From the NCBI GenBank assembly GCA_964372635.1, contig CAYJQW010000006.1, positions 1-60,841 of the forward strand: a stretch of 60,841 bases of DNA. The letters run 5' to 3'. The notes below the pieces were generated by a model. It was given only the letters and a program-made list of their open reading frames with translations, did not search any database and was not told where the DNA came from. Positions 5,729 through 58,561 of the stretch are shown here, piece after piece. Position 1 is the stretch's first letter. Every line of letters begins with the position of its first letter. Source of the DNA: an uncultured Candidatus Saccharibacteria bacterium. Its GTDB lineage: Bacteria; Patescibacteriota; Andersenbacteria; UBA10190. The translations under genes and the position numbers were made by a program.

Positions 5729-5779
5729 AAACTTATAAAAAATTTACTCTTAGTTAACGTCTCGCGAACTATTTTTAGC

Positions 5780-7045: not shown

Positions 7046-8638
7046 CTATCTAAGCACTGCCCGGCGGACACTTTTCGGTAATCTTCCGGCCAAGAGCATA
7101 ACGGTATCTGGGTGCAGCATGGCAATTAGTTTGGCTTGAAGTTTATTTGGATTACTGATAAAAGAAATTGTTGCTTTTGATTCTTTAATAGTTGCAAAAC
7201 CAGCCATAATATCATGGCGATAGTTTACACCGGCAACAATGGCTTTTAAACCAGATCTCGCAATTTGTTGCCCAATCTGTCGGTGTGTGGTCGCTGCGGC
7301 CGAGCCAAGTTCAATAAGAGGCATCAAGACAACAATTTTCGACTGCTGAGGGAAACGACTAAGATGATTAATCGCGTCCTGCACGCTGGCAGCATTGGCT
7401 GAATAGCTATCGTCGATAATTGTCGCACCCCTAATAGCGGATCGCAGTTCCATAGTTTTAGGTACAGGCTTAAGTGTATGTAGCGCTTCGGCTATGTCTT
7501 TAGGTTGTAAACCGAGTGATAACGCCAACGCGCAGGCCGACAAAACACTCATTAAACTACCCTCACCAAGTAAGGGAATAATGACCTTAAAAGTCTCTCT
7601 TCTAATATGAAGCTGACACGATATTTCTTTTGATAGAAACTGCAAGTGCGTAATGTAAACATCAGCTGGTTTTTGCGCGGAATACCAGACAATACGCCTT
7701 TTTTCATGTCGAGCCATTTTTCTAATGCGCTGGTCATCGGCGTTGAGAACGGCAATACCATCAGCTGGCAATCCGGCAACTAATTCCCATTTCGCTTGCA
7801 CCAGTTTCTCTTGAGTGCCAAAAAGTTCCAGATGTTGATTACCCATAGCGGTGATGGCGCCAATTTGGGGTTGAGTAAGTTGAACCAGTTCAGCAATCTC
7901 GCCGCGTCTGTATGCTCCCATTTCGACAACATATATTTCTGTTTGCGACGAAAGAGATTTAAGCATGTGCTGGGCGACTGGAAACACAGAATTTAATCTC
8001 TTGGGTGTCACTAAATGGGAGCAGCCGACATAACTGAGAATTTGGTGAAGGAAAAATTTTGTCGAAGTTTTACCAAAACTTCCTGTGATACCAACCACTA
8101 CAAGATTTTTTTGATCATGACGCAAACGTGTCGCGGCAGCTATCATCTTACGTTTGCGTATATGCGTGACAATATTGACGAAACCAACGCTAAAAGCCGT
8201 CACGATAGGAGCTAATAGTATTATTGTCGTCCACTGGACCGAAATCACGATTTGAAAGGTAAGAACATAAATAATTGGAATAATTAACCCAAGTCCAGCT
8301 AGGGTGCCTATCAAGATTGCCTTGGGTGTGAAGCATGGTCGATAAATACCTCGCTGCTTGATTTTCATGACGTGATAAACTGTTAATATGCTCAGCGCAG
8401 ACAACCCAAATGCCGATGCCGATATGTCGTCCCCGTAAATAAACATTGTCCAACCCCCAGCGATCATAAATAAAGCGACAAATAAAATGCTGGCATACTG
8501 ATTCACAGCAGTGTCACGCAGATAGGCCCGTAGGCGATCCAACCGATATTCCTTGCGCTGCCACAGTTCGACCTGTGACAATAAAGTCAGCATGACGATC
8601 GTCATGCCAAGAATGTTCACAAAAATAGCCCACATCAT
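7046..8638 (-). CDS. murF: Mur-ligase family protein, MurF-like central and C-terminal domains fused to an N-terminal 5-TM membrane module
   Basis: P-loop GITGSFGKTST lies at aa 184-194. Mur ligase middle-domain and C-domain motifs are present (NADD, DDSYNAN-like IIDDSYSAN, LMPLIELG..HRQIG). The first ~160 aa are five hydrophobic helices instead of the soluble MurF N-domain. Confidence 0.75.
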   Translation of the reverse strand: MMWAIFVNILGMTIVMLTLLSQVELWQRKEYRLDRLRAYLRDTAVNQYASILFVALFMIAGGWTMFIYGDDISASAFGLSALSILTVYHVMKIKQRGIYRPCFTPKAILIGTLAGLGLIIPIIYVLTFQIVISVQWTTIILLAPIVTAFSVGFVNIVTHIRKRKMIAAATRLRHDQKNLVVVGITGSFGKTSTKFFLHQILSYVGCSHLVTPKRLNSVFPVAQHMLKSLSSQTEIYVVEMGAYRRGEIAELVQLTQPQIGAITAMGNQHLELFGTQEKLVQAKWELVAGLPADGIAVLNADDQRIRKMARHEKRRIVWYSAQKPADVYITHLQFLSKEISCQLHIRRETFKVIIPLLGEGSLMSVLSACALALSLGLQPKDIAEALHTLKPVPKTMELRSAIRGATIIDDSYSANAASVQDAINHLSRFPQQSKIVVLMPLIELGSAAATTHRQIGQQIARSGLKAIVAGVNYRHDIMAGFATIKESKATISFISNPNKLQAKLIAMLHPDTVMLLAGRLPKSVRRAVLR

Positions 8639-8791
8639 ATTTTTAGATTAGTTGTATTTGCCACTGTTTGCCACCATTACGTCTATATTGTATACATGAC
8701 TATCATCTGCGTTCATAAACATGATTTTACTAGATATTTTCCGTCAATCTGGACAGTAGTGCCTAAGGTGCTGGCGCATTAGTATAAGGCT

Positions 8792-9736
8792 GTGTTAAAC
8801 AGACTAACAATTCAATTGGTTACTTGGAACAGCGCTGGCCATCTGCCGTCGGCACTACTTTCTATGGCTAATATACTTGACAAAAGTGTAGTTGTTCGAG
8901 TCATTGATAACGCTTCAAGTGATTCTTCGGTTTCATTGGTGCGATCACAGCTGCCGCAAGCTGACGTTATCACCTCAACTAAAAACTTAGGCTTCAGCGG
9001 GGGGCACAATCTTGGTTTTAAGTATTGCGAGACAGATCTAGTCATGGTAATAAATCCTGACTTTATCATAAATTGGCCGGGTGTTAAGAAACTAATTGAG
9101 GCATTTGCTGACTTAAAACTAGGTGCCGCTCAGGGAAAGATAATACGCGGGCTAAACAAAGTAGAAACAATAATTGATTCCGCTGGTATAGTGCTCTCCT
9201 TAACCCTAAATGGTATCGATCGTGGAGCGGGCCATCGTGACGTTGGGCAATATGAGTCCGAACAAAATGTTTCTGCTGTTACAGCCGCCGCCGCAATTTA
9301 TAGATTAGAGGCTTTAAAAGGCGTTGCATACGCTGGTGGCGAAGTTTATGACAATGATTTTTTTGCATACAAGGAGGATGTCGATCTTGGTTGGCGCCTC
9401 AACAAGGCTGGTTGGCATGTTCGCTACATACCGATAGATGTCGGGCTGCACACACGGGCACGAGCAAGTCAGGGTAGATTTGGCTGGAGTTTGCACCCCG
9501 TACTGTTTAAACAGCGCCTGAGTGATGAACGAACACGATATTCATTTAGAAATTGGCTTTGGATGCTAGCTAAGAATGCTACAATATGGCAGCTCGCTAC
9601 GCGGATAGTTTTTATCGGTCTTCGTTTAATTACCTTTATATTTATTACACTTCTCTACCCTCCGTTTATCGGAACATGGTTAGATACATTACGAGGTCTG
9701 CCTCGCATGTTAGCAAAACGTAAAAGCTTGAACTAA
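8792..9736 (+). CDS. glycosyltransferase family 2
   Basis: GTG start. QLVTWNSAG..VRVIDNASSDSS, VINPDFII, FFAYKEDVDLGWRL. C-terminal TM helices. Paralog of 2359..3267 and 9749..10555. Confidence 0.8.
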   Translation: MLNRLTIQLVTWNSAGHLPSALLSMANILDKSVVVRVIDNASSDSSVSLVRSQLPQADVITSTKNLGFSGGHNLGFKYCETDLVMVINPDFIINWPGVKKLIEAFADLKLGAAQGKIIRGLNKVETIIDSAGIVLSLTLNGIDRGAGHRDVGQYESEQNVSAVTAAAAIYRLEALKGVAYAGGEVYDNDFFAYKEDVDLGWRLNKAGWHVRYIPIDVGLHTRARASQGRFGWSLHPVLFKQRLSDERTRYSFRNWLWMLAKNATIWQLATRIVFIGLRLITFIFITLLYPPFIGTWLDTLRGLPRMLAKRKSLN

Positions 9737-9748
9737 GAGCGAACTTCT

Positions 9749-10555
9749 ATGAAACTATCAACGATTATTGTTAATTATAACAGTGGGGCGATGACAGCCG
9801 CCTGTATTGAGTCACTGGTGTCACAGCTGCCGACTGATCATGAAATTATTGTTGTTGATAATGCCTCACGCGATGATAGTGTGCCGTTTTTGCAGTCGGA
9901 TTTTCCAGAGGTAAAAGTTATTACGAATGACACTAATCGCGGATTTGGAGCGGCAGTCAATCAGGGGATAGCCGAATCAATCGGTGAATATTATCTTGTT
10001 TTGAATCCAGACATCATTGCCCTGCCCGGATCAATCAAAACTTTACTTTCATTTATGGATGCGCATCAAGATGTTGGCTTGTCGGGCGGGAAGCTACTTT
10101 ACCCGAACGGCAGGCTGCAATATTCCTGCTTCAGATTCTATACGCCTTGGACAGTGATCGCACGCCGAACATTTTTTGGCCGAACAAAGTTTGGTCAGCG
10201 TGAAATTAATCGCTTTTTAATGAAAGACACTGATCACACCTCAACACTAAATGTTGAATGGCTTATGGGTTCCTGCTTATGTCTAAGAGCTTCAGCCGTT
10301 GAAAGAGTTGGCAGGATGGATGAAAGATTTTTTCTTTATTTTGAAGACGTTGATTGGGCAAGACGTTTTTGGGAGAAAAACTGGCGAGTTGTCTATGTGC
10401 CAAAAGCCCATTTTTCTCATTTTTATCAACAAACTAGTCGGCGTAGTCCGCTGTTCGGTGTCCTCACAAACTGGGCAACCAGGGCACATATCAAATCGGC
10501 CATACAGTATTTTTGGAAATACAGAGGTAGATCTTTACCCCTCGTTACTAATTAG
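9749..10555 (+). CDS. glycosyltransferase family 2
   Basis: TIIVNYNSG..IIVVDNASRDDS, LVLNPDIIA, FFLYFEDVDWARRF. Confidence 0.85.
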   Translation: MKLSTIIVNYNSGAMTAACIESLVSQLPTDHEIIVVDNASRDDSVPFLQSDFPEVKVITNDTNRGFGAAVNQGIAESIGEYYLVLNPDIIALPGSIKTLLSFMDAHQDVGLSGGKLLYPNGRLQYSCFRFYTPWTVIARRTFFGRTKFGQREINRFLMKDTDHTSTLNVEWLMGSCLCLRASAVERVGRMDERFFLYFEDVDWARRFWEKNWRVVYVPKAHFSHFYQQTSRRSPLFGVLTNWATRAHIKSAIQYFWKYRGRSLPLVTN

Positions 10556-19493: not shown

Positions 19494-19522
19494 TTGACTT
19501 AACGTCAATGGAGTGCTATACT
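19494..19522 (+). promoter_or_regulatory. sigma70-like promoter P1
   Basis: TTGACT (19494-19499), exactly 17 nt, TATACT (19517-19522). Confidence 0.6.
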
Positions 19523-19648: not shown

Positions 19649-20692
19649 ATGTATTCACCAGAAGTTAACTTAGAGAAAACAACTGATACTTTATTGGCAG
19701 TGTTAGACAAACGGTCTTGTGACATTATGACACGACGTTACGGCTTAGTTTCGAACGAACCTGAAACGTTAGAGAGTATTGGAGCTGAGTACGGTATCAC
19801 CCGAGAACGTGTCCGACAAATACAAGCTCAAGCTAAGAAAGTATTACTGGAACTTGGAGAATCATTATCACCTGTTTCAATCTTATTCGAGCAATTATTT
19901 AAGAACCATGGCGGCATCATGGCTGAAGATCATGTCGTCCAGGCATTACAGGAACAGTTAAGTCATGACCATGCCAGAGCAGCAATTATTGTATTTTACC
20001 TTGATGTGTTGGAACCATATCGATTTATTGTTCGTCACATTCATTTCGCCCCGCATTGGCAGCATCCCGGGCTCATTACTGAGCACAGCACCGGAATAGT
20101 TGATGCCGCTCAACACGCTCTTCAACACAAGCGACACCCTTTAGTTCAAGATGAATTATTCCAGCAGATTCGTAATCATCTCACGGCGACATCCGAAATG
20201 CTGCCCGTAAATTATATATATGCTCACCTCACTGCCAGTAAACTAATTGATAAGACTCCGTTTGGAGAGTGGGGTTTAATAGACTGGTCAGAAACACGTC
20301 CTCGAGGAGTTGGGGACAAGGCCTATGCGGTATTGCGTCGTCATAGTAAACCTGAACATTTTACAAAAATTACTGATCTAATTAACAACGCCTCTTTTAA
20401 TCATAAGAAAGCCAATCCACAAACCGTTCATAACGAGCTTATTAAAGATAACCGGTTTGTACTCGTCGGCCGAGGATTATATGGTCTCACTGAGTGGGGT
20501 TATGTTCCTGGCACCGTGGCTGATGTCATTGAGAATTTACTACGGAAAGCGGTGACACCGTTAACCCGTGAAGAGGTTATAGCCGCTGTGCTCGCCCAGC
20601 GACATGTGAAGAAAAATACTATTTTACTAGGTTTGCAAAATCAGGACCGCTTTGTGCGCACACCTGAGAATCGCTATACCGTCCGAAAATAG
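19649..20692 (+). CDS. sigma-70 region-4 domain protein with tandem HARE-HTH-like winged-helix repeats
   Basis: aa 17-66 (LDKRSCDIMTRRYGL..ETLESIGAEYGITRERVRQIQAQAKKVL) is a textbook sigma region 4.2. Three following segments have the RpoE-delta/HARE-HTH look; two end in G.WGL..W-type motifs (FGEWGLIDW, GLYGLTEWGY). Confidence 0.7.
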   Translation: MYSPEVNLEKTTDTLLAVLDKRSCDIMTRRYGLVSNEPETLESIGAEYGITRERVRQIQAQAKKVLLELGESLSPVSILFEQLFKNHGGIMAEDHVVQALQEQLSHDHARAAIIVFYLDVLEPYRFIVRHIHFAPHWQHPGLITEHSTGIVDAAQHALQHKRHPLVQDELFQQIRNHLTATSEMLPVNYIYAHLTASKLIDKTPFGEWGLIDWSETRPRGVGDKAYAVLRRHSKPEHFTKITDLINNASFNHKKANPQTVHNELIKDNRFVLVGRGLYGLTEWGYVPGTVADVIENLLRKAVTPLTREEVIAAVLAQRHVKKNTILLGLQNQDRFVRTPENRYTVRK

Positions 20693-20768: not shown

Positions 20769-20777
20769 TGGTATAAT
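20769..20777 (+). promoter_or_regulatory. extended -10 TGGTATAAT, leaderless geometry
   Basis: TGGTATAAT ends 6 nt before ATG 20784. There is no Shine-Dalgarno in between. Confidence 0.5.
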
Positions 20778-20783
20778 AATACT

Positions 20784-22067
20784 ATGTCCTTAAGTGAAAC
20801 TGCTGTTAGTGTCGTGGCCCAACTTTCGGACGTTGCTCTGACTTGGGGCTGGCTTTTGCTTGTTTTCTTAGCCTTATGGATAGCTTGGGAGACATATATA
20901 CTCTTGCGTCATATTGACTATACCGCGGCAATCCAATGGACACACTACCAAATAAAGATCCCTCCTGAATCAACAATATCGCCTAAAGCATTCGAAAATG
21001 CCATCGAGGTATGGGGTGGGGTACATAAGGATCCTGATGTCATTGAGCGACTTTTTGAGGGTTATTTTTTGCCGTGGTATAGCTGTGAAATTCAATGTTC
21101 GAAAGGACGCGCTCGCTACATAATAGTGGTCCCGACGGGTCATGCCAAGTTCATAGAAGGTGTAATCTACGGTCAATATCCGACAGCAGAGATTCAGGAA
21201 GTCGAAGATTATTCACAAGAATTCTCCTATCAGGATATTGGCAAAACCATTGAGGTTTTTGGCACCGAGATTCATTTGTCTAAAGATGACATTTATCCGA
21301 TTAGAACATATCTTGAATTTGAAGATTCCTTCGCTGAGGATGAGACATTCATCGATCCACATCAAGCCTTAATTGAAGCATTTACTAATGTTAATGAAGG
21401 GGAACACTTTTGGATTCAAATCCTGATAAAACCGGTCGCCTCCGATACCATTGAGCAGTGGTCAAAACGAGGGCATGCAAAAATTGCCGAATTAGCCGGA
21501 GATAAAACTGAGAAAGACCTAGGTTTATTGGGTAAATTATGGGAATTTGCCACGGTAATTCCCGGAGAACTTTTGCGAGTGGCTACCTCTGGGCCACTCG
21601 AGCCTGAATCAAGCCAGAGGGATATTCAGTTTAGAATTTACAATCCCTCCCAAGATGCGGAAATGAAGGGTATATTACAAAAAGTATCCAGAACCGGCTT
21701 TAAAACACTGATTCGTGTAATTCACATTGCGCCAGTTGGTAAACTACATAAACCAAATTATGGTAAAGCGATTGGTGCTTTCAAACAATTTAATAGCTTT
21801 CACATGAATAGTTTTAAACCAGACAGCGCAACCAAGACAAACGGGCCGAATCTTATCCTGAAGCAAACTCGTCGAGCTTATCGTCAACGGACAATGCTGT
21901 TAAACTATCAATGGCGTGATTTTTGGGGTGATAAGGCAGGTTATATGATGAATGCGGAAGAACTGGCAACGATATATCATATGCCTGTTAGTTATGTACG
22001 TGCGCCGGCCATCGAACGTGCCGCGGCCGGGGCAGGTAGTCCACCTTCAAATGTGCCGTATGTATAG
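20784..22067 (+). CDS. hypothetical single-pass membrane protein, partner of the downstream VirD4/TraD-like ATPase
   Basis: 427 aa. One N-terminal TM helix (LTWGWLLLVFLALWIAWETYILL) followed by a large soluble domain with no motif I recognise. C-terminal AEELATIYHMPVSYVRAP. 39-nt gap to the next gene. Confidence 0.6.
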   Translation: MSLSETAVSVVAQLSDVALTWGWLLLVFLALWIAWETYILLRHIDYTAAIQWTHYQIKIPPESTISPKAFENAIEVWGGVHKDPDVIERLFEGYFLPWYSCEIQCSKGRARYIIVVPTGHAKFIEGVIYGQYPTAEIQEVEDYSQEFSYQDIGKTIEVFGTEIHLSKDDIYPIRTYLEFEDSFAEDETFIDPHQALIEAFTNVNEGEHFWIQILIKPVASDTIEQWSKRGHAKIAELAGDKTEKDLGLLGKLWEFATVIPGELLRVATSGPLEPESSQRDIQFRIYNPSQDAEMKGILQKVSRTGFKTLIRVIHIAPVGKLHKPNYGKAIGAFKQFNSFHMNSFKPDSATKTNGPNLILKQTRRAYRQRTMLLNYQWRDFWGDKAGYMMNAEELATIYHMPVSYVRAPAIERAAAGAGSPPSNVPYV

Positions 22068-22106
22068 AACAAAAACGCTCCATTTTCGTCTTTTCATGAA
22101 CAATAT

Positions 22107-23834
22107 ATGAACCGTCTGAAGCCGCAAAGAGAGGATATCGCCGTAATTGGTCAAACTAATTTTCGTGGTCAAGCTAGGCCCTTTGGCATATACCCAGATG
22201 ATCGTCGACGGCATATTTATATTGTTGGGAAAACAGGTGTAGGCAAGTCAACACTGCTGGAAAACCTTGTCGCTCAGGATATTGTCGCAGGCAGAGGTGT
22301 CTGTTTAGTGGATCCTCACGGTGATGCCGTTGAAAATTTATTGCGAGCTATCCCGCCAAATCGTGTGAATGATGTGGTATATTTTGATCCGTCAGACGTC
22401 GATAACCCGGTCGCTTTTAATGTTCTCGAAGCTACGGATCCAGCATATAAATATTTAGTCGCCTCAGGTTTAGTCAGTTCCCTAAAAAAGATTTGGGCTG
22501 ACTCGTGGGGGCCACGACTTGAATATATCTTGCGGAATACGATCTTGGCGCTGCTGGATTACCCCTCCAGTACAATTTTAGGGATACTACGTGTCCTGTC
22601 TGATAAAGCCTATCGAGTTAAGGTAGTTGAACAGATTAAAGATCCCGTGGTCAAGGCTTTTTGGACAAATGAATTTGCTCAATACAATGAGCGTTTTCGT
22701 TCGGAGGCGATTTCTCCAATCCAGAATAAAGTTGGTCAGCTTTTATCGAGTGCCATCATTCGTAATATTATGGCCCAGCCGAAAAGTACCATCGATATGA
22801 GGGACGTCATGGATAATAACAAGATTTTATTGATTAATGTGTCTAAAGGTAAGATCGGCGAAGATAATTCAGCTTTACTCGGAGCCATGATTATTAATCG
22901 TATTCAATTGGCCGCTATGGATCGCGCCAGTATTGCGGAAAGCGAGCGTCAAGATTTCTATTTATATGTAGATGAATTTCAGAATTTTGCGACTGAATCG
23001 TTCGCCGACATACTGTCAGAAGCCCGAAAATATCATCTTAATTTAACGATTGCTCACCAATACATTACGCAAATGGAAGAACCGGTTCGAGATGCCGTTT
23101 TTGGTAACGTCGGCACTACAATATCTTTTCGCGTAGGGGCAGCTGATGCCGAGTATTTAGAAAAGGAATTTGCGCCAATTTTCACCCAGACGGATCTCGT
23201 TAATTTAAATCAGTATAATGCCTATATTAAGCTGATGATCAATGGTATTAGTAGTAAACCATTTAGTATGACGACGTTGCCAACTGATTTTGAAGATTTT
23301 GGTAAGGCGGAAGTTGTGAGAAGTGTGTCCAGGGAACGTTATGGTCGAAAACGAGAAGTAATTGAGGAGAAGATTAAACGTTGGAGTGAAGCGGCGCTCA
23401 ATCCAAAAAAAGGTGACCAGCATGATAGAAAATCTGAACCTGATAGAAATCGGTCGGCTAAAAAAGTCCAGAATATCACTCCAAATAGTCAAAATTCAGC
23501 AGGGATAGCTACGACAAAAAGTCCATTAACTTCACCAATTAAAGAAATTACAGATTTGTCTACACTGCTCACAAAAACACCGGCTCCGGTTCGAGACAAT
23601 CGAACATTTGTTGCAAAAAATGTGCCTGATCTATTTCCGGCTATTTGCAGTCGTTGTCAGACTCCAACGCAGGTCCCTTTTAAGCCGGCCCCGGATAAAC
23701 CAGTGTATTGCCGTAATTGCTTAGCCCTTGTCCGTGCGGAGAAAAAAATCCGGACTACGCCAGCACTTATGGTTCCTGAAAAACAGCCAAAACCAGCCAG
23801 ATTTTCCGGACCTAGGCCACCTCGACTGCCCTGA
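22107..23834 (+). CDS. VirD4/TraD/TraG-like (type IV coupling protein-like) P-loop ATPase lacking TM helices, with a C-terminal CxxC-x17-CxxC zinc ribbon
   Basis: Walker A GKTGVGKST, VDPHGD, Walker B-like YLYVDEFQNF and ARKYHLNLTIAHQYITQM resemble the TraG-D_C region of coupling proteins. The basic, Pro-rich tail carries CSRC-17 aa-CRNC at nt 23646-23720. Confidence 0.7.
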   Translation: MNRLKPQREDIAVIGQTNFRGQARPFGIYPDDRRRHIYIVGKTGVGKSTLLENLVAQDIVAGRGVCLVDPHGDAVENLLRAIPPNRVNDVVYFDPSDVDNPVAFNVLEATDPAYKYLVASGLVSSLKKIWADSWGPRLEYILRNTILALLDYPSSTILGILRVLSDKAYRVKVVEQIKDPVVKAFWTNEFAQYNERFRSEAISPIQNKVGQLLSSAIIRNIMAQPKSTIDMRDVMDNNKILLINVSKGKIGEDNSALLGAMIINRIQLAAMDRASIAESERQDFYLYVDEFQNFATESFADILSEARKYHLNLTIAHQYITQMEEPVRDAVFGNVGTTISFRVGAADAEYLEKEFAPIFTQTDLVNLNQYNAYIKLMINGISSKPFSMTTLPTDFEDFGKAEVVRSVSRERYGRKREVIEEKIKRWSEAALNPKKGDQHDRKSEPDRNRSAKKVQNITPNSQNSAGIATTKSPLTSPIKEITDLSTLLTKTPAPVRDNRTFVAKNVPDLFPAICSRCQTPTQVPFKPAPDKPVYCRNCLALVRAEKKIRTTPALMVPEKQPKPARFSGPRPPRLP

Positions 23835-24697: not shown

Positions 24698-26572
24698 ATG
24701 ACTATTTCGTCTCATCAAGTGAGGGAGGATTACCAGACTTTTTTTGAGAAACGCGGACACAAAAGGATCCCAGCTGCTTCCTTAGTTCCGGAAAATGATC
24801 CAAGCACACTTTTTACCGGATCTGGCATGCAGCCCTTAATTCCTTACTTACTAGGCCAACAGCACCCACAAGGTTCTCGTCTGACCGACTCACAAGTGTG
24901 TCTGCGTGTTCAGGATATAGATGATGTTGGCGACAATCGTCATACTACTTTTTTTGAAATGCTTGGCAATTGGTCCTTAGGTGACTATTTTAAAACTGAG
25001 CAAATTGGATGGATTTTTGAATTCTTGACTGAGACCTTGAGGCTGGATCCGTCCAGACTATACATTACCGTTTTTGCTGGCAACAATGCGTTGGGTATTC
25101 CTCGTGATACAAAAACAGTTGAGCTTTGGCAGAACTTATTCGGTGCTTCTGGGGTTAAAGCAAAAGCCGTTGGGAATGGCGCCCAGCATGGTCTGCAAGA
25201 AGGTAGAATATTTTATTACGACGAAGCCAAGAATTGGTGGTCGCGCGCGGGGATACCAGCCAATATGCCGATTGGGGAACCGGGGGGGCCTGATACTGAA
25301 ATGTTCTGGGATTTTGGTGCAGAGCGACAGCTACATGAGAGCTCTGTCTATCACAATCATCCTTGTCACGTGAATTGTGATTGCGGTCGATTTATGGAAA
25401 TAGGTAACAATGTTTTTATTGAATATATAAAAACGTCTAGTGGATTTTCTCCCTTACCTCAGAAAAACGTCGACTTTGGCGGGGGACTTGAGCGTCTAAC
25501 AGCCGTGACAAATGATAACCCTGATGTTTTTATGATAGATATTTTCGAGAATATGCGAGCACAGCTCGAAAAAGGATCTAGCCACCACTATGGACAAGAC
25601 AGACAAAGCACGCGAGCTTTCCGAATTATTATGGATCATCTAAGAGCGGTAACTTTTTTGATTGCCCAAGACGTTTTGCCTGCAAATAAAGAGCAAGGTT
25701 ACTTTACTCGCCGACTTTTGCGACGAGCTGTTCGTTATACGGATAGTCTTGGTCTGAATACAAATTACGGAGCCAATTTATGCACCGAGGTTATAGCACA
25801 GTATGGGTCGGTATATCCAGACTTAATTAAAAAGAAAACCGCCATATTGGCTGCCGTGACGAAAGAAGAGGATAAATTTCGCCGGACACTAAAGGCCGGT
25901 TTGCAACGCTTTAAACAAATTACGGAAAATCGTTCCCCCAGAGCATTGATTCCTGCCCAGGAAATTTTTGATCTATATCAAACTTATGGTTTTCCTCTTG
26001 AGTTATCTAAAGAGCTTGCGGATGAGATGAAACTCGTAATTGAGATGCCAAAAGTTCGCCAAATTTTCAAACGTCACCAGTCAAAGTCTAGATTAGGCGC
26101 CGATTATAAATTTAAGGGAGGGCTCGCCGATCATTCTGCTATGTCAATTAAGTACCACACTACTACGCACTTATTGCATCAGGCCTTAAGAACTGTCCTG
26201 GGTAATCAAATTAGGCAGAAGGGAAGTAATATTACCTCCGAGCGTTTGCGATTTGATTTTGCATATCATCGTAAACTTACGGCTATCGAGATTGCCGCTG
26301 TTGAAAAATTTGTTAATGACGCAATTTCAGCAGAGCTTCCGGTACGTCGTGATCAGCTGACGCTTAAAGAAGCTAAGGAACTGGGAGCGATCGGCCTATT
26401 TGAGGAAAAGTACCAGAACCAAGTTAGTGTATACTCAATCGGTGATATATCATGTGAAATATGTGGTGGTCCTCACGTTACGAATACACGAGCCTTAGCC
26501 GGAAAGTTTAAAATTATAAAAGAAGAGTCAGCTGGTGCTGATATTCGTCGGATCAGAGCCATCATAGAATGA
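24698..26572 (+). CDS. alaS: alanine--tRNA ligase, short form without C-Ala domain
   Basis: Class II AlaRS N-terminus (FFEKRGHKRIPAASLVP..DPSTLFTGSGM), the editing-domain HxxxH (HTTTHLLH) and CGGPHV. The ORF stops right after the RRIRAI segment at 624 aa. Confidence 0.85.
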   Translation: MTISSHQVREDYQTFFEKRGHKRIPAASLVPENDPSTLFTGSGMQPLIPYLLGQQHPQGSRLTDSQVCLRVQDIDDVGDNRHTTFFEMLGNWSLGDYFKTEQIGWIFEFLTETLRLDPSRLYITVFAGNNALGIPRDTKTVELWQNLFGASGVKAKAVGNGAQHGLQEGRIFYYDEAKNWWSRAGIPANMPIGEPGGPDTEMFWDFGAERQLHESSVYHNHPCHVNCDCGRFMEIGNNVFIEYIKTSSGFSPLPQKNVDFGGGLERLTAVTNDNPDVFMIDIFENMRAQLEKGSSHHYGQDRQSTRAFRIIMDHLRAVTFLIAQDVLPANKEQGYFTRRLLRRAVRYTDSLGLNTNYGANLCTEVIAQYGSVYPDLIKKKTAILAAVTKEEDKFRRTLKAGLQRFKQITENRSPRALIPAQEIFDLYQTYGFPLELSKELADEMKLVIEMPKVRQIFKRHQSKSRLGADYKFKGGLADHSAMSIKYHTTTHLLHQALRTVLGNQIRQKGSNITSERLRFDFAYHRKLTAIEIAAVEKFVNDAISAELPVRRDQLTLKEAKELGAIGLFEEKYQNQVSVYSIGDISCEICGGPHVTNTRALAGKFKIIKEESAGADIRRIRAIIE

Positions 26573-26651
26573 TTATCGGTAGTATTTATTAATATCGAAG
26601 AAAAGGCTATGGTTAATGTTAGTTAACTAGCATAACAGATTAACTTTTTTG

Positions 26652-28079
26652 ATGCGTGATATTAAGCCAAATTTTAGAAATAAATCTTTTGACGGGTCAT
26701 CAGCTGGATCAAATCCGGATGAGACCAAGTCAAAATCAACTTATCGGAAGTCGATAAGCAGCCATGATCTGCGGGGATCAAGCGTTCCGGTAGCGCATAT
26801 TTCAGCGGCCGATGAGCAAAAAGATCTTGCGGCGTCTAATTTTGCCCGGAAAAGTAAGGTCATTCAGTCGGAATCCACTCGTGGCACCGGTCTCAATTCT
26901 GGTAAACGAAATGATGGATCAGTGCCAGTGTATTCACTTCGACTAGGTTCACGCGAACGACTCATTGTTGGAATATTGCTCGCCATAGCCGGTGTTACTT
27001 CAGGCTTAGCAGCTATAGTTTTTCTACCAAAAGCCGATGTTCAACTTATTTTGCGCACAGCACCACTTCTTGTTGATGAGAAGATCATAATCGCCGCAAA
27101 GGATAATACTAGTTCTGACGTGATTCCGGGTAGTTCTTTTTTCCGCGAACTTGAGGTTAGCGGCATGGCGCCAGTTGTTAGTACAGAAATAGTTGGCGAG
27201 AAAGCCCGTGGTAAGGTTGTTTTAATTAACCGAACACTCGAGGAACAAAAAATAAAATCCCAAAGTCGCCTTATCACATCTGACAATAAATTATATTATA
27301 TGCTGTCAGCTGCTAATATACCGGCGGCTCAGACAAACCAGGTGGCTGATATAACTGTCGAGGTTGAGGCAGCTGAAGCCGGCAGTTCGGGTAATGTATC
27401 GAGCGGTAAGCTAAATTTTGCCGCTTTAGACGAATCGGCCAGAAGTGTTGTCTATGCAGAAATACGCGATCCGATTACAGGTGGGAGTGGCGAGACTGTG
27501 CCGGTTGTGAAAGATACGGACATGGCGGCTGCACGGGTGATTGCCCAACAGGAGGCACGCCGACAGGTCGAGGAGGACATTCGGGCTGAGTTGCCAACAG
27601 GATGGGTTTTCTTGGAAGAAAGCTGGGAAGAAGTTCTGCAAACATTTATTTCTAAGGTGAATGAAAGTGACAGAGAGTCGCAAATACCATATCAGGCAAG
27701 AGCTACCGTTCGTGTCATCGGGTTCGAGCAAAGTGCTTTAGAAAATCATCTTCGTGGCTCTCTTGAAAAAAGACTAGATAAAAACTTCATGCTTTTTCCC
27801 GGACCTATCTCGTTTACAAAGACGGTGGATGATATTAGTTGGGATAAAGGGCAAGCGACTATTGCGGTTAGAGTAACTCATACGACAATTCCGGAGATTT
27901 CATTAGAAACGCTCCGTGAGAAATTGAACGGGCGGCCACGAAGTGAAGCCCAGGCATACCTTGAGGGTCTAGCTGGTGTTCGCAGCGCTTCTGTTAAAAC
28001 ATGGCCTTTTTGGACCCAGTCGTTTCCTAGAATAAATGGTCGTATAGTGATTGATCTTGCCCCTGAACGTCAGCCTTAA
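26652..28079 (+). CDS. hypothetical membrane-anchored protein
   Basis: ~110-aa disordered, basic/Ser-rich N-tail, one TM helix (LIVGILLAIAGVTSGLAAIVFL), then a ~350-aa extracytoplasmic domain. The segment ITVEVEAAEAGSSGNVSSGKL weakly recalls baseplate-J-like proteins (low confidence). Start taken at the ATG one codon after the TTG at 26649. Confidence 0.5.
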   Translation: MRDIKPNFRNKSFDGSSAGSNPDETKSKSTYRKSISSHDLRGSSVPVAHISAADEQKDLAASNFARKSKVIQSESTRGTGLNSGKRNDGSVPVYSLRLGSRERLIVGILLAIAGVTSGLAAIVFLPKADVQLILRTAPLLVDEKIIIAAKDNTSSDVIPGSSFFRELEVSGMAPVVSTEIVGEKARGKVVLINRTLEEQKIKSQSRLITSDNKLYYMLSAANIPAAQTNQVADITVEVEAAEAGSSGNVSSGKLNFAALDESARSVVYAEIRDPITGGSGETVPVVKDTDMAAARVIAQQEARRQVEEDIRAELPTGWVFLEESWEEVLQTFISKVNESDRESQIPYQARATVRVIGFEQSALENHLRGSLEKRLDKNFMLFPGPISFTKTVDDISWDKGQATIAVRVTHTTIPEISLETLREKLNGRPRSEAQAYLEGLAGVRSASVKTWPFWTQSFPRINGRIVIDLAPERQP

Positions 28080-35471: not shown

Positions 35472-36482
35472 ATGAGAGTAACCAGAAAAATAGCCATCGA
35501 CCTTGGTACGACTAATACCCTCATCTATGTTCCACGCGAGGGTATCGTGCTCAATGAGCCATCTGTGGTCGCGGTGTCAACGCTTGAAAACGCGGTTCTG
35601 GCTATTGGTAATGAGGCAAAGAACATGATTGGAAGAACACCAGAGACGATCGTTGCCCACCGGCCTTTACGCGACGGAGTTATTGCGGATTATAGAGTCA
35701 CGGAAGCAATGCTGCGATATCTCATTAAGAAAACTGGTGCTTCAGTCCGTTTCCTGCGCCCCGAAGTATTAGTATCAGTACCAGCAGGAATTACTAGCAC
35801 TGAGCGACGGGCCGTTGTTGATGCAACCCTCTCGGCTGGAGCTAAGGCTGCCTATCTTATTAAGGAACCTATTGCGGCCGCCATCGGCGCCGGTATCCCG
35901 ATAGGTGAGAGCTCGGGACACATGATAGTTGATATTGGTGGCGGTACGACAGAAGTTGCCGTGATAGCCCTAGGTGGAATAGTCACTGCACACTCAGCTC
36001 GTATTGGTGGTAACAGATTTGATGAATCAATTATTGATCATACTAGAAAGCGTTATGGTCTTGTCATTGGTGAACAGACTGCCGAACATATTAAAAAAAC
36101 TATTGGTTCTGCAGTTCTTGAGGAAGAATCCAAAACGATGGCCATCAGGGGACGTGATATGGCATCGGGATTACCAAAAGAAATTATTATTTCCTCGGCG
36201 GAAATTACGGAGGCTCTTCGCAATCCACTTGACGAGGTAATCTTAGCGATTAAACAAGTGTTACAGGAAACACCTCCTGAACTAGCCGCGGATGTAATCG
36301 ATACCGGTATTGTTATTAGCGGTGGTGGTGCTCTCCTGAGAAATATTGATCAACTGATTACGCGGGCAACAAGTGTGACTTCCTATATCGCTGATGATCC
36401 ACTAGTCTGTGTAGTCAAGGGTGCCGGAGCAGCCCTCGAGAATCTTGATTCTTACAAGAGAAGTGTGCTCTTGAGTAAATGA
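35472..36482 (+). CDS. mreB: rod-shape determining actin homolog MreB (copy 1)
   Basis: IAIDLGTTNTLIYV, RPLRDGVIADY, MIVDIGGGTTEVAVI, GIVISGGGALLRNID. Confidence 0.88.
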   Translation: MRVTRKIAIDLGTTNTLIYVPREGIVLNEPSVVAVSTLENAVLAIGNEAKNMIGRTPETIVAHRPLRDGVIADYRVTEAMLRYLIKKTGASVRFLRPEVLVSVPAGITSTERRAVVDATLSAGAKAAYLIKEPIAAAIGAGIPIGESSGHMIVDIGGGTTEVAVIALGGIVTAHSARIGGNRFDESIIDHTRKRYGLVIGEQTAEHIKKTIGSAVLEEESKTMAIRGRDMASGLPKEIIISSAEITEALRNPLDEVILAIKQVLQETPPELAADVIDTGIVISGGGALLRNIDQLITRATSVTSYIADDPLVCVVKGAGAALENLDSYKRSVLLSK

Positions 36483-58027: not shown

Positions 58028-58561
58028 ATGTCAATAGATCCCCGTACCTTAGCTTTAATCCAGCAGCGGCTAGATGAGGCTGAGCGTAATATTCAGTATG
58101 TACGTCAGGCTCTCGAGGAGGGTGAAACCCAAACATCTGCATCTGGCCTACAGGCAGATTCTGACACCGACGATGCTCCGGCGGTCGGAGAAAGAGTTAT
58201 CGAGGGTGTATTTGATGGACAAAATATGCAAGGTAATGACGGTGAGGAATATCCAGTGCCGCCGAATTATGCGTCAAAATCAAAACTTGTCGAAGGTGAT
58301 GTCTTGAAGCTAACGATCGGCATGGATGGAACATTCACTTATAAACAAATTGGCCCAATTGAACGACAACGTGAAGTGGGCAGTCTAGTCATAGATGAAC
58401 AGGGCAACTTCGGAGTTAAGGCTCGGGATAAAACATATCGTATTCTACTAGCAAGTGTTACATTTTATCGAGCCGAAGAGGGTGATGAAGTGACAATTCT
58501 TCTTCCGGCCAACGGAGAAGCAGAGTGGGGAGCAGTCGATAATGTGCTGCATCGCAGTTAG
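58028..58561 (+). CDS. hypothetical protein (coiled-coil, acidic linker, beta-rich C-domain)
   Basis: 177 aa. LIQQRLDEAERNIQYVRQALEE, then an acidic linker, then GVFDGQNMQGNDGEEYPVPPNYASKSKLVEGDVLKLTI..YKQIGPIER. No characterised family recognised. Confidence 0.55.
   Translation: MSIDPRTLALIQQRLDEAERNIQYVRQALEEGETQTSASGLQADSDTDDAPAVGERVIEGVFDGQNMQGNDGEEYPVPPNYASKSKLVEGDVLKLTIGMDGTFTYKQIGPIERQREVGSLVIDEQGNFGVKARDKTYRILLASVTFYRAEEGDEVTILLPANGEAEWGAVDNVLHRS

What the first reader, a model, noticed from the sequence alone, without database searches (positions are those of the whole stretch)
20784..23834. Orphan two-gene module: single-pass membrane protein plus soluble VirD4/TraD-like ATPase with a CxxC-x17-CxxC zinc ribbon, set in the core genome
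Seen in sequence: ORF 22107..23834 carries the P-loop NTPase signatures I associate with type IV coupling proteins (GKTGVGKST, VDPHGD, YLYVDEFQNF, ARKYHLNLTIAHQ). It has no N-terminal TM helices, which canonical VirD4/TraD/TraG proteins do have. The gene 39 nt upstream encodes a 427-aa protein with exactly one N-terminal TM helix and a large domain I cannot assign. The ATPase ends in a Lys/Pro-rich tail carrying CSRC-17 aa-CRNC (nt 23646-23720). I saw no VirB4, VirB6, relaxase, pilin, integrase or repeat boundary anywhere in the 60 kb. The flanks are murC and alaS, so it does not look like an ICE or plasmid remnant. Inference: this is a split coupling-protein-like translocase, with the membrane anchor encoded separately, acting without a canonical T4SS. 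It could be a stand-alone DNA or protein translocation/uptake device, which would be relevant to a host-dependent, reduced organism. As far as I know this gene pair has no experimentally defined function.
Basis: partly seen in the sequence, partly recalled or inferred. Interest (0 to 1): 0.72.

Follow-up and report, generated by a model that had tools for sequence, protein, structure and literature searches.

The report
Split Patescibacterial coupling-protein-like ATPase
Two adjacent genes in a Candidatus Andersenbacteria genome encode, as separate proteins, a membrane anchor (Pfam DUF8128) and a conjugation-type "coupling" ATPase that many other Patescibacteria make as one fused protein; published surveys find such coupling-protein homologues in almost every genome of the phylum, this one sits beside a sigma-like gene rather than a secretion system, and its job is still unknown.

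Summary
Both ORFs, every quoted motif, the single TM helix, the TM-free ATPase, the basic Lys/Pro tail and the CxxC-x17-CxxC zinc ribbon are at the stated coordinates. The window holds only housekeeping genes.

The "split coupling protein" reading is supported. The 427-aa protein is Pfam DUF8128. The ATPase follows it on the same strand in 65 of 80 Patescibacterial loci. At least 120 protein clusters fuse DUF8128 and the TrwB-type ATPase into one 800-1200 aa protein.

Three points change the picture:
- The module has three genes. A sigma70-region-4/HARE-HTH gene lies directly upstream in 65 of 74 testable loci.
- The family is not orphan. It matches the "T4CP homologues far from virB4" reported in 2,918 of 3,035 Patescibacterial genomes. 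It has two paralogs; this pair is type B.
- "Without a T4SS" is not shown. The published Andersenbacteria rows I read are listed as VirB4-positive.

The predicted DUF8128 fold matches only VirB4 (TrwK) chains, with no sequence support. The probable Southlakia ortholog is non-essential in Tn-seq.

Best guess: a membrane-tethered, TrwB-like hexameric motor acting on nucleic acid. Verdict: a new variant of a known kind, of moderate interest.

The parts
19494..19522 (+). Best sigma-70-like promoter match of the region (TTGACT-17-TATACT with an extended TG), upstream of the sigma-like gene. It could be the promoter of a three-gene transcript.
   Evidence: This is a consensus match only. The total number of promoter-like sites is not above the shuffled expectation.
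19649..20692 (+). 347-aa sigma70-region-4 (residues 15-62) plus HARE-HTH (residues 224-283) protein. It is the conserved upstream partner of the module.
   Evidence: Pfam and NCBIfam matches. It lies directly upstream on the same strand in 65 of the 74 loci that have at least 1.2 kb of upstream sequence. The same holds in fused lineages L095 and L097. The Southlakia counterpart by synteny, SEML1_0294, is essential.
20784..22067 (+). DUF8128 (PF26449) protein of 427 aa. A short N-terminus lies outside the cell, followed by one TM helix and a cytoplasmic domain of about 380 aa. It is the membrane anchor and N-terminal module of the ATPase.
   Evidence: The AF2 model has pLDDT 78 and pTM 0.74. 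The top 14 PDB fold matches are all TrwK/VirB4 chains.
20832..20906 (+). The single transmembrane helix, residues ~17-41 (VALTWGWLLLVFLALWIAWETYILL).
   Evidence: Hydropathy maximum 2.06. Across 61 family members, K/R counts average 0.57 before the helix and 2.57 after it. This indicates N-out, C-in topology.
22041..22064 (+). Extreme C-terminal motif PPSNVPYV. The family consensus is (K/R)KG-x-PP-x-x-LP-[IVFT]. It is probably a docking peptide or domain junction.
   Evidence: It is conserved at the C-end of almost all DUF8128 ORFs in the 80 loci. It is repeated at the end of long variants. In fused proteins it sits exactly at the junction with the ATPase. The model is disordered here.
22068..22106 (+). 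39-nt spacer between the two genes. It follows the TAG stop (22065-22067) and keeps the two ORFs in the same reading frame. No terminator-like site lies in it.
   Evidence: A single tblastn HSP from fused orthologs runs across it. The median spacer in other loci is 25 nt, and some genes overlap.
22107..23834 (+). Soluble TrwB/VirD4-type (T4CP-family) P-loop ATPase of 575 aa, with a basic C-terminal tail.
   Evidence: Pfam matches. PDB sequence search: TrwB 2e-5, DotL 3e-3. hhalign of the fused family against TrwB gives probability 95% over 270 columns; against VirB4 only the P-loop aligns. Fold search on a low-confidence model gives DotL, TrwB and Cag-beta, then HerA.
22227..22253 (+). Walker A motif, GKTGVGKST.
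   Evidence: The GKTG.GK core is invariant in alignment A2, and G.K.G.GK is invariant in A4.
22959..23060 (+). Walker B (YLYVDEFQNF), then ARKYHLNLTIAHQ. The second motif is likely the arginine finger and sensor glutamine of FtsK/HerA-class motors.
   Evidence: Searches show that VDEFQNFAT and RKY...Q are invariant. The catalytic roles are inferred from the family.
23397..23831 (+). Lys/Arg/Pro-rich basic tail, residues 431-575, pI 10.3.
   Evidence: Tails are basic (pI above 9) in most adjacent ATPases of other loci.
23631..23723 (+). CxxC-x17-CxxC treble-clef zinc ribbon (PF23477 / TIGR04272). The cysteines span nt 23646-23720.
   Evidence: The model's pLDDT is about 87-92 here. The ribbon is present in 27 of 51 complete adjacent ATPases. 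The domain binds Zn in M. mazei small proteins (PMC12704099).
58028..58561 (+). 177-aa protein with no Pfam match. It is homologous to the ~170-aa ORF that lies between the two DUF8128-ATPase paralogs in other Patescibacteria. It may be an accessory component; membership is uncertain.
   Evidence: tblastn: 43-47% identity, E 1e-40 to 1e-49. No Pfam family. Sequence.

Best explanation
IDENTITY (well supported, about 0.9). The pair is the split form of a Patescibacteria-wide, vertically inherited protein. That protein consists of an N-terminal TM helix, a cytoplasmic DUF8128 domain, a TrwB/VirD4-type ATPase and a variable basic tail. Here the gene is divided just after the conserved PP-x-x-LP junction motif. 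It is the type B paralog, the one that follows the sigma70_r4/HARE-HTH gene.

MECHANISM (inferred, about 0.4). By analogy with TrwB, the ATPase forms a hexameric ring. DUF8128 holds that ring under the membrane through its single TM helix and a VirB4-N-terminal-like collar. In the split form, the conserved C-terminal peptide and the conserved N-terminal hairpin of the ATPase keep the two chains together. The basic Lys/Pro tail carries a zinc ribbon here and an S1 domain in one relative. I propose that this tail recruits a nucleic-acid substrate, which the motor pumps or hands to an envelope conduit encoded elsewhere. The conduit could be the Patescibacterial T4SS or the DNA-uptake machinery. 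Six single TM helices cannot form a channel on their own. On this view it is a substrate-specific, dispensable coupling motor, not a stand-alone translocon.
For: SHOWN
- DUF8128 assignment.
- The ATPase lies directly downstream on the same strand in 65 of 80 loci from many Patescibacterial lineages, with a median spacer of 25 nt and some overlaps.
- All 120 listed hits of a search with the fused protein P0378 are 800-1200 aa proteins carrying PF26449. 116 of them also carry PF10412, and the other four carry PF26449 alone or with PF01935. 1,738 hits have E <= 1e-10.
- The junction in fused proteins is ...KKGEPPANLPI-x(7)-LT.FA.TNFR..., which corresponds to the end of the window's DUF8128 protein and the start of its ATPase.
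- T4CP-type motor: PF10412, PF12696 and PF01935 are above their cut-offs. TrwB is the best PDB sequence match. hhalign against TrwB gives probability 95% and E 2e-8 over TrwB residues 118-394, but only the P-loop aligns with VirB4. Fold matches are DotL, TrwB and Cag-beta.
- Cytoplasmic orientation of DUF8128 follows from the positive-inside rule and from the fusions.
- The window pair is 42-43% identical to paralog B and 31-37% to paralog A.
- Vertical, core inheritance: the ATPase is 48-68% identical across lineages, synteny with the sigma-like gene and alaS is kept, GC is flat, and there are no mobile-element genes.
- Nucleic-acid-binding appendages: basic tails, a zinc ribbon in 27 of 51, and an S1 domain in P0392.

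INFERRED
- Hexamer formation and DNA-dependent pumping, from established knowledge of TrwB and the FtsK/HerA superfamily.
- Dispensability. Southlakia SEML1_0293 (921 aa, PF10412 at 402-719, directly downstream of the essential sigma-like SEML1_0294) is called NE at all three time points. Its normalised reads fall from 5817 to 2940 to 1372. comEC is also dispensable there (PMC12857230).
Against: - No substrate, channel partner or oligomeric state has been tested.
- The ATPase model is poor (pLDDT 55).
- The zinc ribbon is absent from about half of the split forms and from all 45 fused proteins scanned, so it cannot be central to the mechanism.
- Zinc ribbons and basic tails also mediate protein contacts.
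- 15 of 80 loci keep the sigma-like gene and DUF8128 but lack the adjacent ATPase.
- Orthology with SEML1_0293 rests on synteny and domain coordinates from a supplementary table, not on its sequence.
- T4CP homologues occur in 2,918 genomes but VirB4 in only 2,417, and just 148 of 5,713 lie near virB4. A T4SS link is therefore not evident.
Confidence: 0.45

Rival explanations
1. VirB4-like assembly or dislocase ATPase. The DUF8128 collar plus motor acts on proteins such as pilins, T4SS or T4P subunits, or secreted effectors. It would energise assembly or export of envelope structures rather than move nucleic acid.
For: The DUF8128 model matches only TrwK/VirB4 chains in the PDB (14 top hits, E 2e-5 to 1e-3, probability at least 0.99). 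The overall architecture (TM, N-terminal domain, P-loop motor) copies VirB3-VirB4 fusions and the TrsD-TrsE arrangement of pGO1. Patescibacterial T4SS loci carry VirB2-like pilins and lack a recognisable coupling protein in the cluster. A second T4CP-like protein in Southlakia, SEML1_0142, is essential, as is the T4SS.
Against: The motor is TrwB-like, not VirB4-like, by sequence and profile. DUF8128 shows no sequence signal to TrwK, TrsD or TrsE. TM-scores are low (0.31-0.38), and the tool does not report which part of TrwK aligns. The likely Southlakia ortholog is non-essential while the T4SS and pilins are essential. The basic, zinc-ribbon or S1 tails point to nucleic acid.
Confidence: 0.2
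2. Housekeeping DNA translocase acting on the cell's own chromosome, independent of any T4SS. Examples are an auxiliary FtsK/SftA-like segregation motor at division, or a nucleoid-membrane tether working with the sigma-like DNA-binding protein.
For: The motor belongs to the FtsK/HerA superfamily. Published surveys find T4CP homologues in 96% of Patescibacterial genomes, more than carry VirB4. The gene is in the core genome, next to a DNA-binding sigma_r4/HARE-HTH gene in 65 of 74 loci. In Andersenbacteria it lies next to the dcw cluster. A non-essential phenotype with a mild decline in reads would fit an auxiliary segregation factor.
Against: Southlakia has a canonical, essential FtsK with 4TM, alpha, motor and gamma domains (SEML1_0096). 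PF01580 is not matched (12.6 bits against a cut-off of 24). Linkage to dcw genes is limited to a few of the closest loci: murC was detected in only 5 of 80, four of them upstream as in the window. No KOPS-reading gamma domain is present.
Confidence: 0.15
3. ATPase component of an anti-phage defence system (MADS-like or HerA-type), with DUF8128 as sensor or effector.
For: The best PADLOC match is mad8 (E 1e-17, 62.5 bits, residues 33-378), with weaker HerA matches. In Southlakia the gene lies beside a CRISPR-Cas9 locus. The closest plasmid homologue (40% identity) is a stand-alone gene among transposases.
Against: Near-universal, vertically inherited and highly conserved, with fixed synteny beside housekeeping genes. 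No methyltransferase, nuclease or other mad genes lie nearby. DUF8128 has no PADLOC match. Defence genes are normally patchy and fast-evolving.
Confidence: 0.04
4. Decaying remnant of an integrated conjugative element. The split would then be a pseudogenising stop codon in a once-fused T4CP gene.
For: The two ORFs are in the same frame, separated by one TAG and 39 nt. Fused versions are common.
Against: Both halves are under strong conservation. The split form recurs in 65 loci with spacers that are mostly not multiples of three, and with proper start codons. There is no relaxase, integrase or repeat boundary, and no compositional anomaly. Close relatives keep an identical arrangement.
Confidence: 0.02

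Closest known systems
TrwB / VirD4 / TraD type IV coupling proteins (PF10412, PF02534, PF12696)
   Same: P-loop motor of the FtsK/HerA class with a helical insertion. PF10412 is above its cut-off. TrwB is the best PDB sequence match. hhalign gives 95% probability over TrwB residues 118-394. Fold matches are DotL, TrwB and Cag-beta. It is anchored to the membrane at its N-terminal side.
   Different: Canonical T4CPs have a short two-helix TM domain in the same chain. Here the anchor is a ~430-aa DUF8128 module with one TM helix, encoded separately or fused. No relaxase or MPF genes are nearby. The gene is core, vertically inherited and far more conserved than plasmid T4CPs. The tail is basic with a zinc ribbon, unlike the acidic TraM-binding tail of F TraD. 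All curated TraD/VirD4 NCBIfam models score far below their cut-offs.
VirB4 (TrwK of R388), and the split TrsD + TrsE pair of pGO1
   Same: The overall layout is a membrane-proximal N-terminal domain of about 400 aa followed by a P-loop motor. The predicted DUF8128 fold matches only TrwK chains. pGO1 encodes a VirB4-N-terminal-like protein (TrsD) directly upstream of the VirB4 ATPase. That parallels the split seen here.
   Different: No sequence or profile similarity of DUF8128 to TrwK, TrsD or TrsE. The motor aligns with TrwB, not TrwK. TIGR00929 scores 27 bits against a cut-off of 643.
"Orphan" T4CP homologues of Patescibacteria (Quinonero-Coronel et al. 2025, PMC12102498), and Southlakia epibionticum SEML1_0293
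   Same: This appears to be the same family. The paper reports 5,713 T4CP homologues in 2,918 of 3,035 genomes, about two per genome, with only 148 near virB4. In RAAC4_OD1 the hits are proteins #83 and #85, one gene apart. That is the A-small ORF-B layout I found in Berkelbacteria. SEML1_0293 is 921 aa, has PF10412 at 402-719 and follows a 349-aa essential "RpoS" gene.
   Different: In the passages I read, the paper does not describe the DUF8128 N-terminal module, the split and fused forms, the A and B paralogs or the sigma-like neighbour. It only suggests that t4cp may be exapted. The Southlakia protein is fused; the window's is split and has a zinc ribbon.
Legionella DotL-DotM-DotN type IV coupling complex
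   Same: A T4CP motor working with a separately encoded membrane partner (DotM) and a zinc-binding subunit (DotN); this is from my own knowledge. DotL is the best fold match of the ATPase model.
   Different: No homology of DUF8128 to DotM was detected. Here the zinc ribbon is part of the ATPase chain. Dot/Icm is a diderm effector translocator with a full T4SS locus.
FtsK / SpoIIIE / SftA and HerA
   Same: The same ATPase superfamily. PF01935 (DUF87/HerA) is above its cut-off, and HerA is among the fold matches. FtsK is also a membrane-anchored motor with a Pro-rich linker and a C-terminal DNA-reading module.
   Different: PF01580 is not matched. There is no gamma domain. A canonical essential FtsK coexists in Southlakia. 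No NurA-like partner is present.

Membership tests
Type IV coupling protein (VirD4/TrwB/TraD) | P-loop nucleotide-binding domain of TrwB type (Walker A, Walker B, family profile match) | tested here: met
   PF10412 scores 35.1 bits against a cut-off of 20.5 over residues 31-343. PF12696 scores 25.1 against 22. hhalign of family alignment A4 against TrwB gives probability 95% and E 2e-8. Motifs are confirmed.
Type IV coupling protein (VirD4/TrwB/TraD) | All-alpha domain inserted in the nucleotide-binding domain | tested here: inconclusive
   The PF10412 and hhalign alignments span the region. The AF2 model shows helices at residues 112-236 between core strands, but pLDDT there is below 60.
Type IV coupling protein (VirD4/TrwB/TraD) | N-terminal transmembrane domain (usually two helices) in the same polypeptide | tested here: not met
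   No hydrophobic window in the ATPase. The anchor is a separate DUF8128 protein with one helix. In fused relatives the N-terminal module is about 430 aa.
Type IV coupling protein (VirD4/TrwB/TraD) | Genetic association with a relaxase and/or mating-pair-formation genes | tested here: not met
   None in the 60-kb window or in the Pfam-annotated neighbourhoods L089, L090 and L094-L097. The literature reports only 148 of 5,713 near virB4. The rest of this genome could not be examined.
Type IV coupling protein (VirD4/TrwB/TraD) | Curated equivalog models (TIGR03743, TIGR03754, TIGR02759, NF045973) | tested here: not met
   Scores of 14-48 bits against cut-offs of 250-647.
VirB4 | VirB4-type N-terminal domain | tested here: inconclusive
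   Foldseek: the 14 best PDB hits are all TrwK chains, with probability at least 0.99 but TM-scores of 0.31-0.38 and no aligned range reported. There is no sequence or profile signal.
VirB4 | VirB4-type C-terminal ATPase (TIGR00929 / AAA_10) | tested here: not met
   TIGR00929 scores 27 bits against 643. AAA_10 scores 14 against 27.5. hhalign against TrwK aligns the P-loop only. No VirB4 appears in the top 50 fold matches of the ATPase.
Pfam DUF8128 (PF26449) | Match to the family model | tested here: met
   Precomputed PF26449 annotation on the window protein and most homologues, named DUF8128. The model is absent from the local Pfam copy, so one search returned nothing.
CxxC-x17-CxxC zinc ribbon (TIGR04272 / PF23477 zf_Tbcl_2) | Four cysteines with the family spacing, and a profile score above the cut-off | tested here: met
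   48.7 bits against 36 and 47.7 against 27. C514, C517, C535 and C538 are invariant in alignment A2. Zinc binding itself was not tested here; it is shown for M. mazei members.
FtsK/SpoIIIE | PF01580 motor, 4TM domain and gamma domain | tested here: not met
   PF01580 scores 12.6 bits against 24. There is no gamma or 4TM domain. A canonical FtsK exists separately in Southlakia.
HerA | DUF87 central domain with a HerA partner nuclease (NurA, Sir2 or DUF4297) | tested here: inconclusive
   PF01935 scores 32.5 bits against 23.2, and HerA fold matches reach 2e-6. This is superfamily-level similarity. No partner nuclease is found in the neighbourhood.
MADS defence system (mad8) | mad8-like ATPase together with the other mad genes | tested here: not met
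   mad8 model at E 1e-17, but no other PADLOC hits in the neighbours except sigma region 4 matching MzaA. The context is housekeeping.

The most novel reading that the evidence does not exclude
Patescibacteria carry a phylum-wide, T4SS-independent membrane machine. It would be built from a VirB4-like N-terminal collar (DUF8128) and a VirD4-like motor, making it a deep-branching intermediate of the VirB4/VirD4 radiation. With the essential sigma_r4/HARE-HTH DNA-binding protein as its adaptor, it would move nucleic acid between the epibiont's cytoplasm and the envelope. This could serve nucleotide or DNA acquisition from the host, or export. The tandem A and B paralogs would form a two-ring or hetero-hexameric motor.
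Probability: 0.12. Interest if true: 0.85.

Novelty: new variant of a known kind. Interest (0 to 1): 0.55.

Why it matters
Patescibacteria make up a large share of bacterial diversity. They depend on host cells, and most of their conserved, phylum-enriched genes have no known function.

This family is flagged both "core" and "Patescibacteria-enriched" in Southlakia. A published survey detects T4CP homologues in 96% of the phylum's genomes, more than carry the T4SS hallmark VirB4.

Several results turn a vague "orphan t4cp" annotation into a defined target that can be tested genetically:
- The motor always comes with a DUF8128 module, either fused or split.
- That module looks like the VirB4 N-terminal domain.
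- There are two paralogs.
- One paralog is locked next to an essential sigma-like gene.

Genetics now exists for Saccharibacteria, so the target is tractable. If DUF8128 is truly homologous to the VirB4 N-terminal domain, the family would also bear on how coupling proteins and VirB4 diverged.

Tried and rejected
- Sequence searches for DUF8128 against PDB sequences, using the single protein and a 61-sequence profile, found nothing. Scanning all 61 members against local Pfam found nothing either.
- hhalign of DUF8128 profiles A1 and A3 against pGO1 TrsD, pGO1 TrsE and R388 TrwK gave probabilities of 0.5% or less. The VirB4 resemblance therefore rests on one predicted model and one target protein.
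- The ATPase structure prediction was poor (pLDDT 55). I used it only as supporting evidence.
- FtsK replacement idea: weakened, because Southlakia has a canonical essential FtsK.
- L033 looked like a 1016-aa fusion, but it contains a masked run of N. I discarded it.
- Among the close relatives of P0378 in the GTDB collection, only L082 is a true fusion; the rest are split.
- Defence-system reading (PADLOC mad8 hit): rejected on conservation and context. The MADS preprint gave no domain description for mad8.
- ICE or plasmid remnant: rejected. DUF8128 has no plasmid homologue except in one odd, unannotated 1.08-Mb "Priestia plasmid" record.
- Literature searches for PF26449, DUF8128 and Patescibacteria + HARE-HTH returned nothing.
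- R388 under accession BR000038 was not in the collection. I retrieved it as NC_028464.
- I could not check VirB4 or paralog A in this genome outside the window. I also could not look up specific assemblies in the truncated supplement.

Full report
1. OBSERVATION

The two ORFs are present as described: 20784..22067 (+, 427 aa) and 22107..23834 (+, 575 aa), separated by 39 nt. All quoted ATPase motifs are at the stated places. The cysteine pattern CSRC-x17-CRNC spans nt 23646-23720.

The zinc ribbon passes the curated cut-offs of TIGR04272 and PF23477. The last 145 residues hold 15 K, 12 R and 22 P, with pI 10.3. Hydropathy finds one TM-grade segment in the 427-aa protein (residues ~17-41) and none in the ATPase.

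Pfam scans of the other window ORFs of 110 aa or more (apart from overlapping shadow ORFs) give a purely housekeeping picture, plus several ORFs with no family match. They include glycosyltransferases, Mur ligases, MraY, FtsW, MurG, MurC, LOG, AlaS, ribosomal proteins, RpoA, MurA, two MreB, SecA/D/F, MreC, PBP2, aminoacyl-tRNA synthetases, FtsQ, GreA and DnaX. There is no VirB4, VirB6, relaxase, integrase or pilin. GC content is flat. Named homologues come from Candidatus Andersenbacteria.

2. THE ATPASE

It is a TrwB/VirD4-type motor. PF10412, PF12696 and PF01935 are above their gathering scores, and PF02534 is just below. TrwB, then DotL, are the best PDB sequence matches.

A profile of 45 family members aligns with R388 TrwB at 95% probability over TrwB residues 118-394. 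The same profile aligns with R388 VirB4 (TrwK) only at the P-loop. The AF2 model is poor (pLDDT 55). It still retrieves DotL, TrwB and Cag-beta before HerA, and no VirB4.

All curated TraD/VirD4 equivalog models are far below their cut-offs. The protein is therefore in the T4CP family but is not a member of any characterised subfamily.

3. THE 427-AA PROTEIN

It is Pfam DUF8128 (PF26449). No paper in the library mentions this family.

A profile search finds 2,226 clusters at 50% identity. The 80 best genome loci are, by their record titles, almost all from Patescibacteria. They include Paceibacteria-type groups, Moranbacteria, Liptonbacteria, Doudnabacteria, Wolfebacteria, Uhrbacteria and Magasanikbacteria. 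A few records are titled Gammaproteobacteria or Acutalibacteraceae; I take these to be mislabelled.

Across the family, K/R residues cluster after the TM helix (2.57 against 0.57 before it). The ~380-aa domain is therefore cytoplasmic.

An AF2 model (pLDDT 78, pTM 0.74) matches TrwK/VirB4 of the R388 T4SS in all 14 top PDB hits, with E 2e-5 to 1e-3 and probability at least 0.99. It does not match TrwB, HerA, FtsK or the isolated VirB4 C-terminal domain. The similarity is therefore most likely to the VirB4-specific N-terminal domain. This is an inference, because the tool gives no aligned ranges.

TM-scores are low (0.31-0.38), and no sequence or profile method supports the link. I treat it as a lead.

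4. THE PAIR IS A SPLIT GENE OF A FUSED FAMILY

The ATPase follows DUF8128 on the same strand in 65 of 80 loci. The median spacer is 25 nt, and some genes overlap.

A 956-aa protein, P0378, carries both parts. Searching with it returns 1,738 hits at E <= 1e-10. All 120 listed hits are 800-1200 aa proteins carrying PF26449, and 116 of them also carry PF10412. Named examples include Berkelbacteria.

In fused proteins the junction reads ...KKGEPPANLPI-linker-LT.FA.TNFR..FGI..DRRRH.Y.IGKTG.GKS. The window's DUF8128 protein ends in PPSNVPYV, and its ATPase starts just before TNFR. The break therefore lies exactly at the linker.

The C-terminal (K/R)KG-x-PP-x-x-LP-[IVFT] motif is conserved in almost every DUF8128 ORF. 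It is duplicated at the end of long variants. I infer that it is a docking or junction peptide.

5. WIDER ANATOMY

(a) The 347-aa gene upstream (19649..20692) has sigma70 region 4 plus a HARE-HTH domain. It lies directly upstream on the same strand in 65 of 74 loci with enough upstream sequence. The same holds in fused lineages. Other neighbours are not conserved: murC is detected in 5 of 80 loci and alaS in 20 of 80. The conserved unit therefore has three genes.

(b) Lineages with fused genes carry two paralogs in tandem. Type A is about 831-853 aa, followed by a ~170-aa ORF, sometimes the sigma-like gene, and then type B at about 980-1180 aa. A and B are about 37% identical over their full length. 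Both keep the P-loop and the YLYVDE motif.

The window pair is type B: 42-43% identity to B against 31-37% to A. Type A is not in the window. The ~170-aa ORF has a homologue at 58028..58561 (43-47% identity).

(c) C-terminal appendages vary. The zinc ribbon is present in 27 of 51 complete split ATPases and in none of 45 fused proteins scanned. One fused protein has an S1 domain instead. Tails are mostly basic.

(d) 15 of 80 loci keep the sigma-like gene and DUF8128 but have an MltG-like gene in place of the ATPase.

6. WHAT IS ALREADY KNOWN

Quinonero-Coronel et al. 2025 (PMC12102498) found 5,713 VirD4-type T4CP homologues in 2,918 of 3,035 Patescibacterial genomes. Only 148 lie near virB4. 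The authors remark that t4cp may have been exapted.

Their Table S3 lists T4CP hits at proteins #83 and #85 of RAAC4_OD1. That is the A-small ORF-B layout. Their "about two orphan T4CPs per genome" therefore appear to be this family.

VirB4 occurs in 2,417 genomes. The Andersenbacteria rows I read in Table S1 are all VirB4-positive. One of them, GCA_001001305.1, carries the DUF8128 homologue P0209. "No T4SS" cannot be inferred from this window. Even so, T4CP homologues are more widespread than VirB4.

In Southlakia epibionticum Tn-seq (Wang et al. 2023, PMC10633639), SEML1_0294 is annotated "RpoS" (349 aa) and flagged core and Patescibacteria-enriched. It is essential. Directly downstream lies SEML1_0293, which is 921 aa with PF10412 at 402-719 and carries the same two flags. 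It is called non-essential at all three time points. Its normalised reads fall from 5817 to 2940 to 1372, while its neighbours stay flat.

A second T4CP-like protein, SEML1_0142 (1019 aa), is essential. A canonical FtsK, SEML1_0096, is present and essential. I equate SEML1_0293 with type B by synteny and domain coordinates. I have not seen its sequence.

7. MECHANISM

Shown: a membrane anchor with a cytoplasmic DUF8128 domain, genetically and often covalently coupled to a TrwB-type P-loop motor with intact catalytic motifs and a variable basic tail.

Inferred: the motor forms a TrwB-like hexamer held under the membrane by six DUF8128 subunits. The tail (zinc ribbon or S1) engages nucleic acid. 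Because six single helices cannot make a channel, the motor must feed another conduit, such as the T4SS or the uptake machinery.

The non-essential phenotype parallels that of comEC in the same organism. It contrasts with the essential T4SS.

Rivals considered:
- A VirB4-like assembly ATPase acting on proteins.
- An auxiliary chromosome translocase.
- A defence ATPase, suggested by the PADLOC mad8 hit.
- An ICE remnant.

The last two are contradicted by conservation and context.

8. NOVELTY AND SCORE

The ATPase family and its orphan status are published. The DUF is catalogued.

New here:
- The obligatory DUF8128 module and its VirB4-like predicted fold.
- The alternation between split and fused forms.
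- The A and B paralogs with an intervening small ORF.
- The tight linkage of B to an essential sigma_r4/HARE-HTH gene.

I rate this a new variant of a known kind, with interest 0.55. The function is unknown and a genetic system exists, which raises its value. Prior publication of the orphan T4CPs and the non-essential phenotype lower the surprise.

Noticed in passing
window 19649-20692 (+): A 347-aa protein with sigma70 region 4 at the N-terminus and a HARE-HTH (RNAP-delta-like) domain at 224-283, but no sigma region 2. It is conserved directly upstream of DUF8128 across Patescibacteria. Its Southlakia counterpart by synteny (SEML1_0294, annotated RpoS) is essential and Patescibacteria-enriched. 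Its function is unknown.
   Followed up: partly
window 58028-58561 (+): A 177-aa protein with no Pfam match: coiled-coil N-terminus, acidic linker and beta-rich C-terminus. It is 43-47% identical to the ~170-aa ORF that lies between the two DUF8128-ATPase paralogs in Berkelbacteria and other lineages. Here it is 34 kb from the pair, next to a GtrA-like gene and dnaX.
   Followed up: partly
window 22065-22109: The DUF8128 and ATPase ORFs are in the same reading frame, separated by a single TAG and 13 sense codons. Read-through would recreate the fused protein. Spacers in other loci are mostly not multiples of three, so this is probably chance.
   Followed up: partly
window 20772-20777: A perfect TATAAT lies 6 nt upstream of the ATG of the DUF8128 gene. 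If used, it would give a leaderless or nearly leaderless mRNA. The scan found no matching -35 element.
   Followed up: no
loci L017, L018, L023, L028, L035, L037, L042, L044, L052, L056, L068, L073, L074, L078, L080: These loci carry DUF8128 with no ATPase within the fetched flanks, and most also keep the sigma-like gene upstream (11 of 15 by tblastn). In about a dozen, a ~290-350 aa ORF follows DUF8128. In the three I read (L018, L074, L080) it is MltG/YceG-like, and mnmA (L018, L074) and alaS follow in these.
   Followed up: partly
L094 (Berkelbacteria CP011213.1) 3851-9988; L095; L096: Two tandem DUF8128-T4CP paralogs: A at about 830-850 aa and B at about 980-1180 aa, about 37% identical, separated by a ~170-aa ORF. 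SecD/SecF lie nearby on the opposite strand in all three loci.
   Followed up: partly
L092 = NZ_CP045273.1 ("Priestia megaterium plasmid pFDU301A") 692031-695606: A 1.08-Mb circular "plasmid" record with a single annotated feature and local GC of 34%. It carries a DUF8128-like gene (24% identity) followed by the ATPase (39-41% identity in three same-frame pieces). It looks like a mis-assigned or unannotated genome of another organism.
   Followed up: partly
L091 = NZ_CP081110.1 (Sulfitobacter mediterraneus plasmid) 99994-101181: The closest plasmid homologue of the ATPase (40% identity, 92% coverage). It is a stand-alone 395-aa soluble protein among transposases on a non-mobilizable plasmid, with no DUF8128 and no T4SS genes in the 17-kb stretch examined.
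   Followed up: partly
window 22107-23834: The best PADLOC match of the ATPase is mad8 of the MADS defence system (E 1e-17, 62.5 bits). This is stronger than any Pfam T4CP model. It suggests that the MADS ATPase belongs to the same T4CP-like clade.
   Followed up: partly
window 26649-28079 (+): A 476-aa protein with one predicted TM segment and only a weak, sub-threshold Baseplate_J match. It is conserved just downstream of alaS in the closest relatives (L001-L004, L089). Its function is unknown.
   Followed up: no
window 35472-36482 and 46813-47871 (+): Two full-length MreB paralogs sit in one 60-kb stretch, together with MreC and PBP2. The 176-aa ORF between mreC and PBP2 (48731-49261) has no Pfam match.
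   Followed up: no
window 24698-26572 (+): AlaS is short (624 aa). It has a catalytic domain and a tRNA_SAD domain but no detectable C-terminal DHHA1/C-Ala domain. Homologues in related loci are similarly short (593-607 aa).
   Followed up: no
window 56358-57932 (-), 54738-55343 (-), 47-643 (+), 1919-2272 (+): ORFs of 524, 201, 198 and 117 aa with no Pfam match at E <= 0.001-0.01.
   Followed up: no
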